Below, piece by piece: positions 12,001 to 21,000 of a stretch of DNA of 33,519 bases. A program made the position numbers. The stretch is from NCBI GenBank assembly GCA_039803745.1, contig JBDRZD010000013.1, forward strand, positions 1 through 33,519, given 5' to 3'. This DNA comes from a candidate division WOR-3 bacterium. Lineage in GTDB: Bacteria; Hydrothermota; Hydrothermia; Hydrothermales; Hydrothermaceae. How positions within the stretch are numbered: position 1 is the first letter of the stretch; each line of letters begins with the position of its first letter.

Positions 12001-15000
12001 TCAAACAATCAATATGCCAATATTTGGAATCACTATGAATTTAAAGGGATTTCTGTTTAAGTTTTTAATTATTTTAAAAAACATTGAAGAGAAAAAGAAA
12101 AATTTATAAAAAGGAGGATTTAAATGGCAGAAAAAAGTAAAATAGACGCAATTATAGAAGGAATTGAATCTCTAACAGTAATAGAATTGGCAGAACTGGT
12201 AAAAAAACTTGAAGAAAAATTTGGTGTATCAGCACAAGTTCCTGTTATGGGTGCTCCGGTAGGTGGCGGTGCAGGAGCACCAGCACAGGTAGAAGAAAAA
12301 ACAGAATTTGATGTAATTCTTGTAGATGCTGGTGAGAAAAAAATACCTGTTTTAAAAGAAATTAGATCAATTACAGGACTTGGTCTTAAAGAGGCAAAAG
12401 ACCTTATAGGAAGTACTCCGGGTGTAATTAAAAAAGGTGCATCAAAAGAAGAAGCTCAAAAAATAAAACAAGCTCTTGAAGCCCTGGGTGCAAAAGTAGA
12501 AATTAAGTAAATAAAAAGGTGTTTAAGATATAAAGATAAATAGAAAAATTTATAAGGAGGGGCAATTATGCCTATAAAAAGAGTAAATCAAAAAAAAGAA
12601 TTAATAGAAATGCCAAATCTTTTACAGGTTCAACTTCAATCTTTTATAAGTTTCTTACAGCTTGATAAATTAAAAGAGGGGGAAGAATTAAAAAACGAAG
12701 GACTTCATGCTCTTTTAAATGAAACTTTTCCTGTTGAAGATATTCATAAGAGATTTGTATTAGAGTATGTAGGTTATAGGATAGGCAAGCCGAAATATGA
12801 ACCTGAGGAATGCCAGAAAAAAAATCTTACATATTCAGTTCCAATATTTGTTACACTAAGGCTAATTGAAAAAAATCCAGACACCCAAGAAACAATAGGA
12901 AGTCCTGTGGAAGAAGAAGTTTATCTTTGTGACCTTCCTTTTATGACCGAAAAGGGTACATTCATAGTAAATGGTGTGGAAAGAGTAATAGTAAACCAAT
13001 TGCACAGGTCTCCTGGTATATATTTTGACATTGAAGAAAAAGGAGATACAACAAGATATATTGCACTTTTAGTGCCTTATAGAGGACCATGGATTGAATT
13101 TTCAATAGATGCTCAAAAAATATTTGGAGTTACATTCCTCAAAAGAAGGAGATTCCCTGTTTCAAGACTTTTAAGAATACTTGGATACAGAACAAATAAG
13201 GATATATTAAGATTTTTCTTTGGAAAACCTAAGAAAATTAAAGTTTCTGAACTGGAATCAAATTTATACTACACAGCATCCGAAATTGTAATACAAGAAA
13301 CAGGAGAAGAACTTTTTGATACTGCTACTCTTTTAGATGAAGAGGCAATAGAAAAACTAAAAGAAAAAAATATAAAAGAAGTAGAAGTTTATCCTGCTGA
13401 AACACCGGGACTTGATGTAATTCTTGCCACAATCCGACATGACAGAATGAAAACAGAAACCGATGCCCTCGCATCTATATACAGAATAATAAGATTTATA
13501 CCACCAAAATCAGAGGAAGAGGCAAGATTTTATATAAATGAAGTTCTTTTCTCAAAAACAAAAATGGAGATGGGAAGCGTGGGAAGATATAAACTTAATG
13601 CAAGATTAGGGCTTAATATTCCAGAAGATAAAAAAGAATTAACAATATGGGATTTAGAAGAAATCATTAGAAGGACATTAAAACTATATCTTGGAGAAGA
13701 ACCACTGGATGATATAGACCATCTCGGTAATAGAAGAGTTAGAAGGGTTGGTGAACTTCTTGGAGCCCAATTTAAATTAGCACTTACACGCCTTGCAAGG
13801 AGTATTAAAGAAAAAATGCTCCTTGAAAGGGAAGGGAAACTATTGCCACACCATTTAATAAATCCAAGAGTTCTCTCTGCTACAATACTTTCCTTTTTTA
13901 CAGTTAACAGGCTCTCTCAATTCCTTGAACAAACAAATCCACTTTCCGAATTAACTCATAAAAGAAGATTATCAGCAATGGGGCCAGGTGGACTTACAAA
14001 AGAAACTGCAGGTTTTGAGGTAAGAGATGTTCATCCCTCTCATTATGGAAGATTATGTCCAATAGAAACACCTGAAGGACAAAATATAGGACTTATCACA
14101 AGCCTTACCACATATGCCCAAATAGATGAGATGGGATTTATAATTACACCTTTCAGAAAAGTAAAAAACGGAAAAGTTACGAACGAAATAGCCTATTTAA
14201 CACCTGTTGAGGAAGATAATGTAAAAATTGCACCTGCTGATACACCTTTAGATGAAAAGGGAAATATAATACCAAGTATTGTATCTGTTAGATATAAGGG
14301 AGGCTACCCCACTGTTAAAAAAGAAGAAGTTGAATATATGGATGTTTCACCGAGACAAATAGTCTCTCCTTCTGCTTCACTTATACCATTCCTTGAGCAC
14401 GATGATGCTAACAGGGCTCTTATGGGGGCAAATATGCAAAGACAGGCTGTACCACTCCTTGTTCCAGAAGCTCCTATTGTGGGAACAGGTATGGAAGAGA
14501 AAGTGGCAATAGATACTGGGACTGTGGTTGTTGCAAAAAGAAGTGGTACTGTAATAGAAGCAGATGCAGAAAAAATTGTGATTAAACCAGATGAAGGAGA
14601 AAAGAAATTAATAGGAGAAGATCTTGATGAATATAATCTTATTAAATTCAAGAAGACCAATCAAGAAACAATAATGCATCAATTTCCAATTGTAAAACCC
14701 GGAGATAGAGTTAAAAAGGGAGATGTAATAGCAGACAATTTATCTACAAATGAAGGAGAACTTTCCTTAGGAAAAAATTTACTTGTTGCTTTCATACCAT
14801 GGTATGGTTATAATTTTGAAGATGCAATTGTAATAAGTGAAACACTTGTAAAAGAGGATGTATTCACATCAATCCATATTAAAGAACTTGAAGTTTCAGT
14901 AAGAGAAACAAAATTAGGACCTGAAGAGATAACAAGAGATATTCCAAATGTACCCGAGGACATGATTAAACATCTTGATGAAGATGGAATTGTAAGAATT

Positions 15001-18000: not shown

Positions 18001-21000
18001 ATAAAGGAAAAGATAATTGAAACATCAGTTGGAAGAATAATATTTAATAACATAGTTCCTCCTCCCTTAAGATTCATTAACGAGGAAATAAATAAGAAAA
18101 AGCTGGGAAATTTAATTTATGAGTGTTATAAAAAATTTGGTTCTCTTGTAACCGAAAAATTTCTTGACGACATAAAAGACCTTGGATTTAAATGGGCAAC
18201 AAGAGCAGGAATCACTTTTGGAATAGATGAATTACTTGTCCCAACTGAGAAAGAAAAATTGATTGAAAAAGCGGAAAAAGAGATAGAGAAGGTAGAAAAC
18301 GAATTTCTAAAAGGAAAAATATCAAGAGGCGAAAGATACAACATGATCCTTGATATATGGACACAAGTCACTGATAGAGTTACAGAAATGATGGTGGAAA
18401 AAATGAGAAAAGATAGAGACGGATTTAATTCAATATTTATGATGATGGATTCAGGAGCAAGAGGAAGTGTTGATCAGATAAAACAGCTTGCGGCAATGAG
18501 AGGGCTTATGGCAAAACCGAAAAGGACCATAGGTCTTGCTGGTGAATTTATCGAAACACCTGTTAAGTCTAATTTAAAAGAAGGAATGAGCGTACTTGAA
18601 TACTTTATTTCCACTCATGGAGCAAGAAAAGGATTAATTGATACTGCTCTTAAAACTGCAGACGCAGGATACCTTACAAGGAAACTGGTTGATGTTGCAC
18701 AGAGTGTAGTGATTACAGAGGAAGATTGTGGAACCATTCTTGGAAGAGAAATTACTGCTTTGAAAGAGGGAGAAGCAATAATAGAGCCATTATCAGAAAG
18801 AATAACAGGAAGATTTGCAGCCGAAGATATAAGAAATCCTATAACTGGAGAAATAATAGTAAAAGCAGGCGAAGAAATTACTGAAGAAATTGCTCAAGAA
18901 ATAGAAAATCTTGGAATAGAAAAAGTAAAGATAAGATCCGTGTTAACATGTGAATCACCCCATGGAATATGCGTAAAATGTTATGGAATGAACCTTGCAA
19001 CAGGTAAAAATGTAGAAATAGGTGAACCTGTTGGAATAGTTGCAGCACAATCCATAGGTGAACCTGGAACACAACTTACTCTTAGAACATTTCATATAGG
19101 TGGTGCTGCTGCAAGAATAATGGAAGAATCCACCCATGAAGCACCTTTTGATGCAAAAGTTGAATATATAGGTCTTGGTGTAGCGGAAAATTCTGAAGGT
19201 GCAAAAGTTGCAATAACAAAGAAAGGACTTATAAAACTTGTAAGTCTTGAAGAGAAAAAAATGGTAAGAAATTATTATATTCCTCAGGGAGCAAAAGTAT
19301 TTGTAAAAGATGGAGACGAAGTGAAAAAAGGTGATGTAATATGTAAATGGGAACCTTATAATATACCAATACTTGCAAGTAAATCAGGGATTGTGGAATT
19401 CAAAGATTTAGAAGAGGGAGTAACTTTCTATGAATCAGCTCTTGAAGGCGGAAGAATTGAAAAAATAGTGATAGAGGATAAGACAAAGAAAAAGCACCCG
19501 GCTATTTTAATAATGAGTGATAAAAAGAAAATTTTAGAAGAAATAGCATTACCAAAGGGTGCCCATCTATTGGTTGAAAGAGGAATGACAATAAAATCAG
19601 GAGACATTGTTGCAAAACTTCCAAGAGAAGCAGGAAAAACAAGAGATATAACAGGAGGTCTTCCAAGAGTTGCGGAGCTCTTTGAAGCAAGAGTTCCAAA
19701 GGATAAAGCAGTTGTAGCTGAAATAGATGGGATTGTAAAAATAGGGAAACCTGAAAGAGGTTATAGAGAAGTAAAAATTATTTCTGATGTTGGAACCGAA
19801 ATAACCTATACTATTCCTTATGGGAAATATCTCCTTGTTGAAGATGGAGAAAGAATAAGAGCAGGTGATCCACTCACAATAGGGCAGATAGATCCCCATG
19901 ATGTTTTAAGGATTAAAGGAGTGCAGGCGGTTCAGGAATTCCTTATGGACCAAATACAGCAAATATACAGGCTTTCAGGAGTAAAAATCGCTGATAAACA
20001 TATTGAAGTTATTGTAAGACAAATGATGAGGAAAGTAAAAATAGAGGATCCCGGTGATACAAAATTTGTAAGAGGACAATTTGTTGATAGGGTAACTGTT
20101 CTTGAAGAAAATGCAAATATCCTTGAAAGGGGAGGAAAACCTGCAACCTATTCCCCTGTTCTTTTAGGTATAACAAGGGCTGCTCTTGCGACAGAAAGCT
20201 TCATTTCTGCCTCTTCGTTCCAGGAAACAACAAGAGTTCTTGCAGAAGCAGCAATATACGGTAAAAAGGACGAGTTAAAAGGACTTAAAGAAAATGTAAT
20301 TGTTGGAAGTTTAATACCTGCAGGCACAGGGTTTAGAGAATTCAAGAATATTCAAGTAATAGGAGAAGAAGAGGAAGAACTTGCAATTGCAGAATAGGAG
20401 GTGAAAAATGAATTTAGGTTTTCAAGAAATCCTTCTTATATTCCTCATAATTCTTCTTTTATTTGGGGCAAAAAAATTGCCAGAACTTGCAAGAAGTATG
20501 GGTCAGGCACTCAGGGAATTTAAAAAAGCAGCAAAAGAAACAACTGAAGAAGAAAAAGAGGAGGAGAAAAAATAGAAGAATATATAATTATAGAATGTCC
20601 ATTCTGCAAAACGAAATATAAATTACCAAAAGAAAAGGCAAAACCTGGTATAAAGGCGAGATGTAAAAAATGCGGAAATATTTTTCCAATTGCAGCTATA
20701 GAAGAAAAAAAAGAAGAAAGAAAATATGTTCCACCAAAGGACGAAGAAGAAAGAAAACTTTATGAAAAGGCAAAAAGGCTTGCAAGGATTCTTGCTAAAG
20801 ATATAACGAATTATTATAGAGAAAAATGGGAAATGGGATTAAAAGAAGGAAATTTAAAGGAAATCCTAAAAGAAGAAATCAAAAAATCGTGGGAATATTA
20901 TTGTGAGAAAATTCCTGAAGAAATAAGAAAAAAAACGAATTTCTTTGAAGAGGCTTTCAATGAAATAGTAGGAAAAGGTCAAAAGATATTTTAAATGAAT

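What a model noticed while it worked through the whole genome (the two positions that open the first line are those of the whole stretch)
12568..20397. RNA polymerase without GreA and without omega subunit
Beside rpoB-rpoC (C13:12568-20397) and rpoA (C20) the genome has no gene for the omega subunit (RpoZ) and no Gre-family transcript cleavage factor (neither the N-terminal coiled coil nor the C-terminal domain). Both are missing from all order genomes searched, so the lineage runs a bacterial RNA polymerase without two nearly universal accessory parts, as known for GreA in cyanobacteria.
Evidence so far: Call 95 (no Pfam rows). PF01272 GreA_GreB: no hit in 10 of 11 order genomes, one hit inside a 638-aa frame in G129; PF03449 GreA_GreB_N: 0 of 5; PF01192 RNA_pol_Rpb6: 0 of 11 with controls 14 of 14. 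The same kind of search found the uncalled L31 gene, so small genes are not overlooked.
(Added by a program. Inside this text positions count along the whole contig: contig position 1 is position 1 of the stretch shown here. "Call 12" and the like, gene names such as g00115 and contig names such as C1 are that model's own, and its searches are not shown. The text may have been shortened before it was handed on; [...] marks where a part breaks off. The agent that wrote the report below was given it as the finding of a first reader that could run no searches.)

Follow-up and report, generated by a model that had tools for sequence, protein, structure and literature searches.

The report
Hidden omega subunit; Gre factor truly lost
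This hot-spring bacterium does have the small omega subunit of RNA polymerase, in a form too diverged for standard searches, but it and its whole class really lack the Gre factor that rescues stalled polymerase in most bacteria.

Summary
rpoB (12568-16305) and rpoC (16321-20397) are where the finding says. The rest of the finding is half right.

Omega is not missing. Pfam and NCBIfam find none in the genome. Across the class, though, omega scores fade gradually. A profile built from those small ORFs finds one 71-81 aa frame in 11 of 11 order genomes. In this genome it is C20:19110-19328, minus strand, 73 aa, E 2.6e-7, and the only hit among 30,943 frames. It overlaps the start of coaBC by 4 nt, as recognised omegas of the class sit directly before coaBC. 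It is under purifying selection and is predicted to dock on beta' (0.82 against best control 0.16). Public records call its relatives "hypothetical protein".

Gre is really absent. A profile of the phylum's own Gre finds it in 0 of 44 high-quality class genomes. The one hit in the genus sits on a probably mis-binned contig. Half of the phylum (WOR-3) keeps a long Gre of 600-850 aa.

Beta' shows no cyanobacterial-type compensation specific to the Gre-less group. Gre-less bacteria are already known, so interest is moderate.

The parts
12568..16305 (+). rpoB, RNA polymerase beta subunit, 1245 aa
   Evidence: Six Rpb2 Pfam domains, best E 8e-135; ORF.
16321..20397 (+). rpoC, RNA polymerase beta' subunit, 1358 aa. 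It is a single unsplit gene with a trigger-loop insertion of about 174 aa.
   Evidence: Five Rpb1 Pfam domains plus hybrid-barrel hits at 970-1186. Insertion length and bridge-helix and trigger-loop residues were read against E. coli rpoC.
17767..17811 (+). beta' residues 483-497, the main predicted docking segment for the 73-aa omega
   Evidence: Contacts with the least expected error, 1.2-1.7 A, in the predicted complex (chain 1 residues 184-198, chain 1 starts at beta' 300).
19000..19026 (+). beta' residues 894-902, second predicted omega contact
   Evidence: chain 1 residues 595 and 600-603.
20323..20376 (+). beta' residues 1335-1352, the C-terminal tail predicted to be held by omega
   Evidence: chain 2 residues 156-173 (chain 2 starts at beta' 1180).
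9853..12510 (+). nusG, rplK, rplA, rplJ, rplL: the usual genes upstream of rpoBC
   Evidence: Pfam NusG+KOW, L11, L1, L10, L7/L12. tRNA-Ser and tRNA-Trp lie at 9276-9500.

Best explanation
The polymerase of this bacterium has the normal core, omega included.

Omega. It is a 73-aa protein encoded outside the window at G000:C20:19110-19328 (minus strand), directly before coaBC. It has drifted below the reach of PF01192 and TIGR00690. It most likely binds beta' where omega always does and helps beta' fold and assemble. Its existence, homology and gene position are shown. The binding is predicted. The function is inferred from the family.

Gre. The Gre transcript-cleavage factor is genuinely lost, in this genome and throughout its class. 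The class is the thermophilic hot-spring and hydrothermal branch of phylum WOR-3 that holds Candidatus Hydrothermus. The other half of the phylum keeps a long Gre.

How it copes (inferred, not shown). Backtracked or misincorporated complexes are probably resolved by the polymerase's own hydrolytic activity at high temperature. An acidic residue at bridge-helix position 792 may help. Mfd can push stalled complexes forward. A DksA/TraR-type protein still occupies the secondary channel in this order.
For: OMEGA
- Across the class, PF01192 matches 50 of 64 genomes at E<=1 but only 24 of 64 reach the cut-off. Scores fade family by family.
- I took 30 small frames under those hits and dropped one, a NUDIX-like 159-aa false hit. 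A profile of the other 29 was run over all 30,943 six-frame ORFs of this genome. It gave one hit, 31.1 bits, E 2.6e-7; the next best had E 1.2.
- The same profile (28 of the 29 rows, one near-duplicate left out) finds one 71-81 aa frame in 11 of 11 order genomes, E 6e-7 to 9e-3.
- Order-only profile against class profile by hhalign: probability 96.2%, E 2e-9, 61 columns.
- The joint profile hits solved omega chains, best E 1e-8.
- Gene position: the ORF has an AAGGAG site and overlaps the next gene by 4 nt. That gene is coaBC. In 16 of 17 class relatives examined, a 373-395 aa ORF follows omega directly; it is coaBC in 7 of 7 tested by Pfam.
- dN/dS is 0.04-0.10 in the 5 of 10 genome pairs where dS was not saturated.
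- Predicted complex with two beta' pieces, using only the order's alignment for omega: score 0.82, best of 3 controls 0.16. That mark was reached by 116 of 157 solved complexes and 2 of 215 mismatched pairs. The runs agree in at least 97% of contacts and the partner's pLDDT is at least 77. Solved RNAP-omega complexes exist, so the pass may partly come from the model's memory.

GRE
- Nothing in this genome with PF01272.
- Nothing with HMMs of the phylum's own Gre module (run with filters off) or of its N-terminal extension (default filters).
- Nothing with tblastn of the genus-mate's Gre.
- The phylum-specific Gre profile on the class finds 4 of 64 genomes at E<=0.1 and 0 of 44 high-quality ones. 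The genomes without a hit include ones in 3-4 contigs at 99-100% completeness.
- Weak PF01272 hits in frames of about 400 aa are trigger factor, 3 of 3 tested.

OTHER FACTORS
- Mfd is present.
- A DksA/TraR protein of 127 aa is present.
Against: OMEGA
- The ORF matches no Pfam family at E<=1.
- The order-only profile alone finds no solved omega at E<=10.
- Foldseek E-values are not significant, 0.6 and up.
- The fold model used an alignment that included recognised omegas, so it is not independent.
- No protein-level or RNA evidence exists. None of the runs that hold the window is on record as RNA.

GRE
- The genome is a 93.5% complete bin of 100 contigs.
- One genus-mate, G014 (RpoC region 96% identical), carries an intact long Gre on a 2.8-kb contig whose GC (32%) is not foreign.
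- Two other class genomes, G033 and G036, carry Gre C-terminal fragments.

MECHANISM
- The coping mechanism is inference only.
- The class keeps E. coli-type residues at 773, 940 and 1136.
- An acidic residue at 792 is shared with Gre-bearing relatives.
Confidence: 0.8

Rival explanations
1. Gre is encoded by this organism but was lost in assembly or binning. On this view the long Gre on G014:C227 is the genus's real gene.
For: G014 is a close genus-mate (RpoC region 96% identical). Its contig C227 holds an intact 638-aa Gre with the conserved acidic tip. The contig's GC is 32%, like the genus. The window's genome is 93.5% complete.
Against: The other 63 class genomes have no counterpart of this protein. 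The class has 0 of 44 high-quality genomes with any Gre. The contig shares no DNA or protein stretch with this genome beyond chance. Its REP-like hairpin occurs 4 times on that contig and nowhere else in G014, G000, G015, G016 or G013; such repeats are normally scattered through their host genome (recalled). Retention in one genome only would need many independent losses.
Confidence: 0.08
2. The 73-aa ORF is an unrelated small protein or a leader of coaBC, and omega is truly absent from the order.
For: There is no Pfam or NCBIfam match. The order-only profile finds no solved omega. Fold-search statistics are weak.
Against: There is a transitive profile link. The position before coaBC is the same as for recognised omegas of the class. 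The ORF is single-copy in 11 of 11 order genomes. Purifying selection is strong. The first 27 Foldseek rows are all short chains of bacterial RNA polymerase entries. The docking prediction passes its controls.
Confidence: 0.05
3. Gre is lost, but a factor of an unrecognised family, not the polymerase itself, took over transcript cleavage or backtrack rescue in this class.
For: Beta' shows no change at the tested hydrolysis-boosting positions that sets the Gre-less class apart from Gre-bearing relatives. Three class families lack DksA/TraR too, 0 of 22 genomes, so the secondary channel would otherwise have no known partner. The omega case shows how easily small factors escape family models here.
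Against: No candidate was found. No TFIIS-type zinc ribbon is present. DksA/TraR is present in 236 of 272 phylum genomes regardless of Gre, so it is not a specific replacement. I did not run a systematic phyletic-profile search.
Confidence: 0.25

Closest known systems
Bacterial RNA polymerase omega subunit (RpoZ; Pfam PF01192, NCBIfam TIGR00690)
   Same: It is a small helical protein of 73 aa. The core pattern (N-K-Y/F, hydrophobic run, A/T-R, then K-[PA/S]-x-x-x-A) aligns with class omegas. It sits directly before coaBC, as I recall for rpoZ in Bacillus subtilis (not checked here). It is predicted to clasp beta' segments 483-497 and 894-902 and the C-terminal tail. That omega docks on conserved regions D and G and on the tail of beta' is recalled, not read here.
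   Different: It scores below every curated model. Identity to Pfam-positive class omegas is 13-33%. The usual Pro after the conserved Lys is Ala or Ser in the order. Public records call its relatives 'hypothetical protein' with no Pfam domain: 3 of 7 carry that name and 4 of 7 carry none.
Gre-less RNA polymerase of cyanobacteria (Riaz-Bradley, James, Yuzenkova 2020, PMC7026648; I read the abstract, passages and section 15)
   Same: A free-living lineage with no Gre factor. [quoted passage not shown] Own beta' has Asp at E. coli position 792; N792D raised hydrolysis 3.5-6.5-fold in E. coli polymerase according to section 15.
   Different: Beta' is one gene, not split. The trigger-loop insertion is 171-178 aa, against 187 in E. 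coli, so it is not the very large cyanobacterial one. Positions 773, 940 and 1136 keep the E. coli residues F, A and G in the 28 class sequences read. Omega, DksA/TraR and Mfd are present.
Long Gre of the other WOR-3 lineages (frames mostly of 600-850 aa)
   Same: Same phylum. It is the form that the ancestor of this class presumably lost. It carries a complete GreA module (PF03449 + PF01272) with the invariant G-D-x-x-E-N-x-E-Y tip.
   Different: It is absent here. It has an N-terminal extension of about 500 aa with no Pfam family. Long GreA proteins of chlamydiae and spirochaetes come to mind, from recall only; I did not compare them.

Membership tests
RpoZ / omega (PF01192, TIGR00690) | Scores over the curated cut-off of the family model | tested here: not met
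   No match in the genome at E<=10. The 73-aa ORF has no Pfam family at E<=1.
RpoZ / omega (PF01192, TIGR00690) | Sequence homology to recognised omegas | tested here: met
   Class profile to own ORF, E 2.6e-7. hhalign of order against class, 96.2%, E 2e-9. The joint profile hits solved omega chains, E 1e-8. The link is transitive: the order alone finds no solved omega.
RpoZ / omega (PF01192, TIGR00690) | Small helical fold of omega | tested here: inconclusive
   Model pLDDT 80, three helices. The first 27 Foldseek rows are short chains of RNA polymerase entries, TM 0.45-0.64, but E is 0.6-4. The model's alignment included known omegas.
RpoZ / omega (PF01192, TIGR00690) | Binds beta' at the omega site | tested here: met
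   Prediction only: score 0.82 against best control 0.16. The mark was reached by 116 of 157 solved and 2 of 215 mismatched pairs. Runs agree in at least 97% of contacts; partner pLDDT at least 77. The pass may lean on solved RNAP-omega structures. No experiment.
RpoZ / omega (PF01192, TIGR00690) | Conserved gene position of the class's omega, directly upstream of coaBC | tested here: met
   4-nt overlap with coaBC in this genome. 16 of 17 class relatives have a 373-395 aa ORF next to omega; 7 of 7 tested are coaBC.
GreA/GreB (PF03449 + PF01272) | C-terminal Gre domain anywhere in the genome | tested here: not met
   (none at E<=10). (phylum-specific HMM, best E about 1). (0 of 44 high-quality class genomes).
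GreA/GreB (PF03449 + PF01272) | N-terminal coiled coil with acidic tip | tested here: not met
   Only 14.8 bits inside a cyclase-AAA-TPR protein. Profile A4 includes the coiled coil and finds nothing in this genome.
Cyanobacterial-type Gre-independent polymerase | Hydrolysis-boosting residues F773V, N792D, A940V, G1136Q (E. coli numbering, PMC7026648 section 15) | tested here: not met
   Own sequence has F, D, A, G. Only 792 is of the cyanobacterial type, and 10 of 10 Gre-bearing relatives also have D or E there.
Cyanobacterial-type Gre-independent polymerase | Split beta' and very large trigger-loop insertion | tested here: not met
   One 1358-aa rpoC. Insertion 174 aa against 187 in E. coli.
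Cyanobacterial-type Gre-independent polymerase | High intrinsic transcript hydrolysis | not testable with these tools
   Needs purified enzyme.
DksA/TraR (PF01258) | C4 zinc finger after a coiled coil | tested here: met
   127-aa ORF between ileS and lspA, 46-48 bits, over the cut-off. By eye only one of the two tip aspartates of E. coli DksA seems kept; that motif is recalled, not tested.

The most novel reading that the evidence does not exclude
A whole thermophilic class of WOR-3 transcribes with no transcript-cleavage factor, and three of its families lack DksA/TraR as well. It does so without the active-site changes that make cyanobacterial polymerase self-sufficient. It would therefore hold a second, independent solution to proofreading and backtrack rescue: either a heat-tuned polymerase or a factor of an unknown family.
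Probability: 0.45. Interest if true: 0.6.

Novelty: new member of a known kind. Interest (0 to 1): 0.38.

Why it matters
1. It corrects a false absence. The omega of this order, and weakly scoring omegas across the class, are filed as hypothetical proteins. A class-level profile recovers them. Claims that a lineage lacks omega, if they rest on Pfam alone, should be distrusted.

2. It adds a well-sampled, free-living, thermophilic lineage to the short list of bacteria without Gre factors. Sister lineages in the same phylum still carry a long Gre. That gives a natural comparison for asking how a polymerase copes without a cleavage factor.

3. A cultured thermophile of the WOR-3 lineage now exists (strain sy37, PMC12285271, passages read). 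I did not check whether it belongs to this class or lacks gre. If it does, biochemistry may be feasible.

Tried and rejected
- Reads test. I laid the G014 Gre contig (L066, 2767 nt) at 80% likeness on the contigs of four hot-spring runs. Each of those runs holds 0.89-0.96 of the sampled words of window 20400-30000. Only pieces of 23-41 nt matched and no contig covered the gene. These are contigs, so a part without cover proves nothing. I draw no conclusion.
- The order-only omega profile against solved structures gave no omega.
- Foldseek on the omega model gave no match at E<=0.001.
- Weak PF01272 hits at model positions 48-76 in frames of 390-450 aa looked like a shortened Gre. They are trigger factor, 3 of 3 tested.
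- The weak tblastn hit of the G014 Gre on C35 near the DksA-like gene (E 0.65) lies inside ileS, so it is chance.
- The weak PF03449 hit on C32 is inside a cyclase-AAA-TPR protein.
- TFIIS-type zinc ribbon: 11 bits only.
- DksA/TraR as the specific stand-in for Gre is rejected. It is present in 236 of 272 phylum genomes whatever their Gre state, and absent from three Gre-less families.
- Cyanobacterial-type beta' residues as the compensation are rejected for 773, 940 and 1136. Two of the 30 class loci, L111 and L113, gave a wrong reading frame in my script and were dropped from those counts.
- Paper searches found nothing of use on unannotated omega, long GreA, WOR-3 together with GreA (0 papers) or Gre-less taxa. 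'GreA' in PMC7203096 matched only words beginning 'great'.
- Earlier notes of this scan on omega and GreA concern other things.
- One search failed because I sent a whole locus for translation; I then sent the ORFs.
In one search one wrong frame (L070) slipped into the Gre profile; it was removed with the same result.
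Full report
WHAT IS AT THE COORDINATES

The window is contig C13 of a 1.67-Mb bin: 100 contigs, 93.5% complete, 0.2% contamination. The G+C content is 25-36%. ORFs 12568-16305 and 16321-20397 are rpoB (1245 aa) and rpoC (1358 aa), with all Rpb2 and Rpb1 domains. They follow nusG, rplK, rplA, rplJ and rplL, with tRNA-Ser and tRNA-Trp further upstream. The coordinates of the finding are right.

WHICH ORGANISM

Relatives of a small protein of this genome carry record titles that name Candidatus Hydrothermus pacificus and Candidatus Hydrothermales. The window's words are held by hot-spring metagenomes of several studies. A paper on the first WOR-3 isolate (PMC12285271, passages read) places the Hydrothermus MAGs in the WOR-3 lineage and calls EM3 a class within it. 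I therefore read "phylum" in the search tool as WOR-3 and "class" as its thermophilic Hydrothermus branch.

OMEGA: THE NEGATIVE RESULT IS REAL BUT MISLEADING

PF01192 and TIGR00690 find nothing in this genome at E<=10, while the controls ring. Across the 64 class genomes PF01192 matches 50 at E<=1, but only 24 reach the curated cut-off. The scores fall family by family, from 43 bits to about 14. In the order the only row is a 13.8-bit hit inside a 311-aa frame. This is the picture of a fast-drifting protein, not of a loss.

I translated the small frames under 30 of those hits. One, a 159-aa NUDIX-like frame, was a false hit and I dropped it. The other 29 are 66-99 aa proteins with a common core. 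An HMM of the 29 was run with all filters off over all 30,943 six-frame ORFs of at least 25 aa in this genome. It gave one hit, C20:19110-19331 on the minus strand, 31.1 bits, E 2.6e-7. The next best had E 1.2.

The same profile, as alignment A1 (28 rows, one near-duplicate left out), finds exactly one 71-81 aa frame in 11 of 11 order genomes, with E from 6e-7 to 9e-3. Two further weak rows contain a TGA stop.

OMEGA: CORROBORATION

- The ORF is 73 aa with ATG at C20:19328. It has AAGGAG a few bases upstream, and its stop overlaps the start of the next gene by 4 nt.
- That next gene is coaBC (DFP plus Flavoprotein domains).
- In 16 of 17 class relatives examined, a 373-395 aa ORF follows omega directly. 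The exception is L007. In 7 of 7 that I ran against Pfam, the ORF is coaBC.
- A profile of the 11 order proteins alone aligns to the class profile with hhalign probability 96.2%, E 2e-9, over 61 columns.
- The joint profile hits solved omega chains, best E 1e-8, and omega fills nearly the whole list.
- The order profile alone finds no solved omega, so the link is transitive.
- Among five genomes of the family, dN/dS is 0.04-0.10 in the 5 of 10 pairs where dS was not saturated.
- An AlphaFold model built on the joint alignment has pLDDT 80 and three helices.
- In Foldseek no row reaches E 0.001. However, the first 27 rows are all short chains of bacterial RNA polymerase entries, and several of them are labelled omega.

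OMEGA: PREDICTED DOCKING

I folded the ORF, with only the order's alignment, against beta' residues 300-965 and 1180-1358. The score was 0.82 and the best of three controls 0.16. That mark was reached by 116 of 157 solved complexes and 2 of 215 mismatched pairs. The three runs agree in at least 97% of contacts and the partner's pLDDT is at least 77. The contacts fall on beta' 483-497, 894-902 and the C-terminal tail 1335-1352. From memory, this is where omega sits in solved polymerases. Because such complexes are solved, the pass shows likeness and may come partly from the model's memory.

Public collections hold seven close relatives of the ORF. None has a Pfam domain. Three are named "hypothetical protein" and four carry no name. 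I put the odds that this is the omega subunit at about 0.93.

PF01272 gives nothing in this genome. PF03449 gives 14.8 bits inside a protein that Pfam reads as cyclase-AAA-TPR. In the class, PF01272 passes its cut-off in 3 of 64 genomes. The many weak rows at model positions 48-76 lie in frames of 390-450 aa that are trigger factor, 3 of 3 tested.

The omega case shows that Pfam can fail here, so I repeated the logic for Gre. In the phylum, 134 of 272 genomes pass the PF01272 cut-off, nearly always inside frames of 600-850 aa. These are long Gre proteins. They have about 500 N-terminal residues with no Pfam family, followed by a complete GreA module with an invariant G-D-x-x-E-N-x-E-Y tip.

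HMMs of that module (filters off) and of the extension (default filters) find nothing in this genome. Alignment A4 of the module finds 4 of 64 class genomes at E<=0.1 and 0 of 44 high-quality ones. The genomes without a hit include ones in 3 or 4 contigs at 99-100% completeness.

GRE: THE EXCEPTIONS

- G014 is a genus-mate whose RpoC region is 96% identical to this one. It has an intact 638-aa long Gre on contig C227, 2767 nt.
  - The protein is at most 43% identical, over part of its length, to any other Gre in the phylum. It has no counterpart in the other 63 class genomes.
  - The contig shares nothing with this genome.
  - The gene is flanked by REP-like hairpin repeats and by what looks to me like a REP-associated transposase. 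I judged the transposase by eye and did not run it against Pfam.
  - The repeat motif occurs 4 times on that contig and nowhere else in G014, G000, G015, G016 or G013.
  - I read the contig as mis-binned from an unsampled WOR-3 organism. A rare accessory gene is not excluded.
- G033 and G036 are 57% and 89% complete. They hold nearly identical C-terminal fragments of a short GreA. One is at a contig end. The other is fused in frame to a MutS domain V fragment. These are remnants or chimeras.
- G005 has a 13-bit chance row.

I put the odds that this organism truly lacks Gre at about 0.9.

HOW IT MAY COPE

The only worked example is cyanobacteria. I read the abstract, passages and section 15 of PMC7026648. 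In that study, four cyanobacterial-type residues (F773V, N792D, A940V, G1136Q, E. coli numbering) raised the intrinsic hydrolysis of E. coli polymerase.

I aligned E. coli rpoC with 10 Gre-bearing WOR-3 sequences and 30 class sequences. Two class sequences were dropped for a wrong frame. The results were:

- Position 773 is F in all.
- Position 1136 is G in all.
- Position 940 is A in all 28 Gre-less sequences, whereas the Gre-bearing ones vary (V, I, T, M, A).
- Position 792 is D in this genome and in 24 of 28 class sequences, but E or D in all 10 Gre-bearing ones.
- The trigger-loop insertion is 171-178 aa in both groups, against 187 in E. coli.
- Beta' is not split.

So there is no cyanobacterial signature tied to the loss.

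Other factors:

- Mfd is present.
- No TFIIS-type ribbon is present.
- A 127-aa DksA/TraR protein lies between ileS and lspA. The family is in 236 of 272 phylum genomes whatever their Gre state. It is missing from three Gre-less class families, 0 of 22 genomes. It is therefore no specific stand-in for Gre.

My best guess is intrinsic cleavage sped up by heat, plus Mfd. That is inference. A factor of an unknown family remains a live rival.

COMPARISON AND VERDICT

The omega is a diverged member of a known family that escapes its models. The Gre loss is a new, well-sampled case of a known kind. [quoted passage not shown] I found no paper that holds both WOR-3 and GreA. The headline of the finding, a polymerase missing two near-universal parts, shrinks to one part. 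The remaining interest is the contrast within one phylum between Gre-less thermophiles and relatives with a long Gre, and the families that lack both Gre and DksA.

Noticed in passing
L067:1492-3591 (-), L068:226-2184 (+), L069:385-2472 (+); other WOR-3 genomes: About half of the phylum carries its only Gre as a 600-850 aa protein. It has about 500 N-terminal residues with no Pfam family, followed by a complete GreA module. What the extension does is unknown.
   Followed up: partly
L066 (G014:C227:1-2767): This 2.8-kb contig holds a long Gre flanked by 33-nt REP-like hairpin repeats and the start of a gene that looks like a REP-associated transposase (judged by eye). The repeat occurs on no other contig of G014 or of four relatives, so the contig is probably mis-binned.
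   Followed up: partly
L033:1225-1656 (+) in G033; L032:1498-1680 (-) in G036: One open frame joins a MutS domain V fragment to the last 51 residues of a short GreA. A nearly identical Gre end sits at a contig end in a second genome of the genus. It could be a gene remnant, a chimera or a contaminant.
   Followed up: partly
class families f6, f7, f8 (G023-G044): These 22 genomes have no DksA/TraR zinc-finger protein, although 236 of 272 phylum genomes have one. They carry no intact Gre either; G033 and G036 hold only C-terminal Gre fragments. No known secondary-channel factor is left in them.
   Followed up: partly
L101-L120 (rpoC of class families outside the own order): The bridge-helix motif G-Y-L-T-R-R reads G-H-L-T-R-R in 18 of 18 usable sequences of the other class families, at what should be E. 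coli Y795, counted from N792. It stays Y in the own order and in 10 of 10 Gre-bearing relatives.
   Followed up: no
L048, L049, L051-L054 (family f2), just upstream of omega: In the sister family the omega ORF follows a stretch that ends like the 3' end of a tRNA gene (...GGCCCA, once with CCA) instead of the AIR-synthase-like gene found upstream in this genome. I did not run a tRNA scan there.
   Followed up: no
window 22811-27199 (-): A 1462-aa protein has a Peptidase C25 domain (E 4e-58) and weak CARDB and Por-secretion-tail matches, so it is probably a type IX secretion cargo protease. The 432-aa ORF downstream on the same strand (27196-28494) has no Pfam family.
   Followed up: no
G000:C35:10348-10731 (L072:1477-1860, -): A 127-aa DksA/TraR-type protein lies between ileS and lspA. 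By eye its coiled-coil tip keeps one of the two aspartates of E. coli DksA; that motif is recalled.
   Followed up: partly
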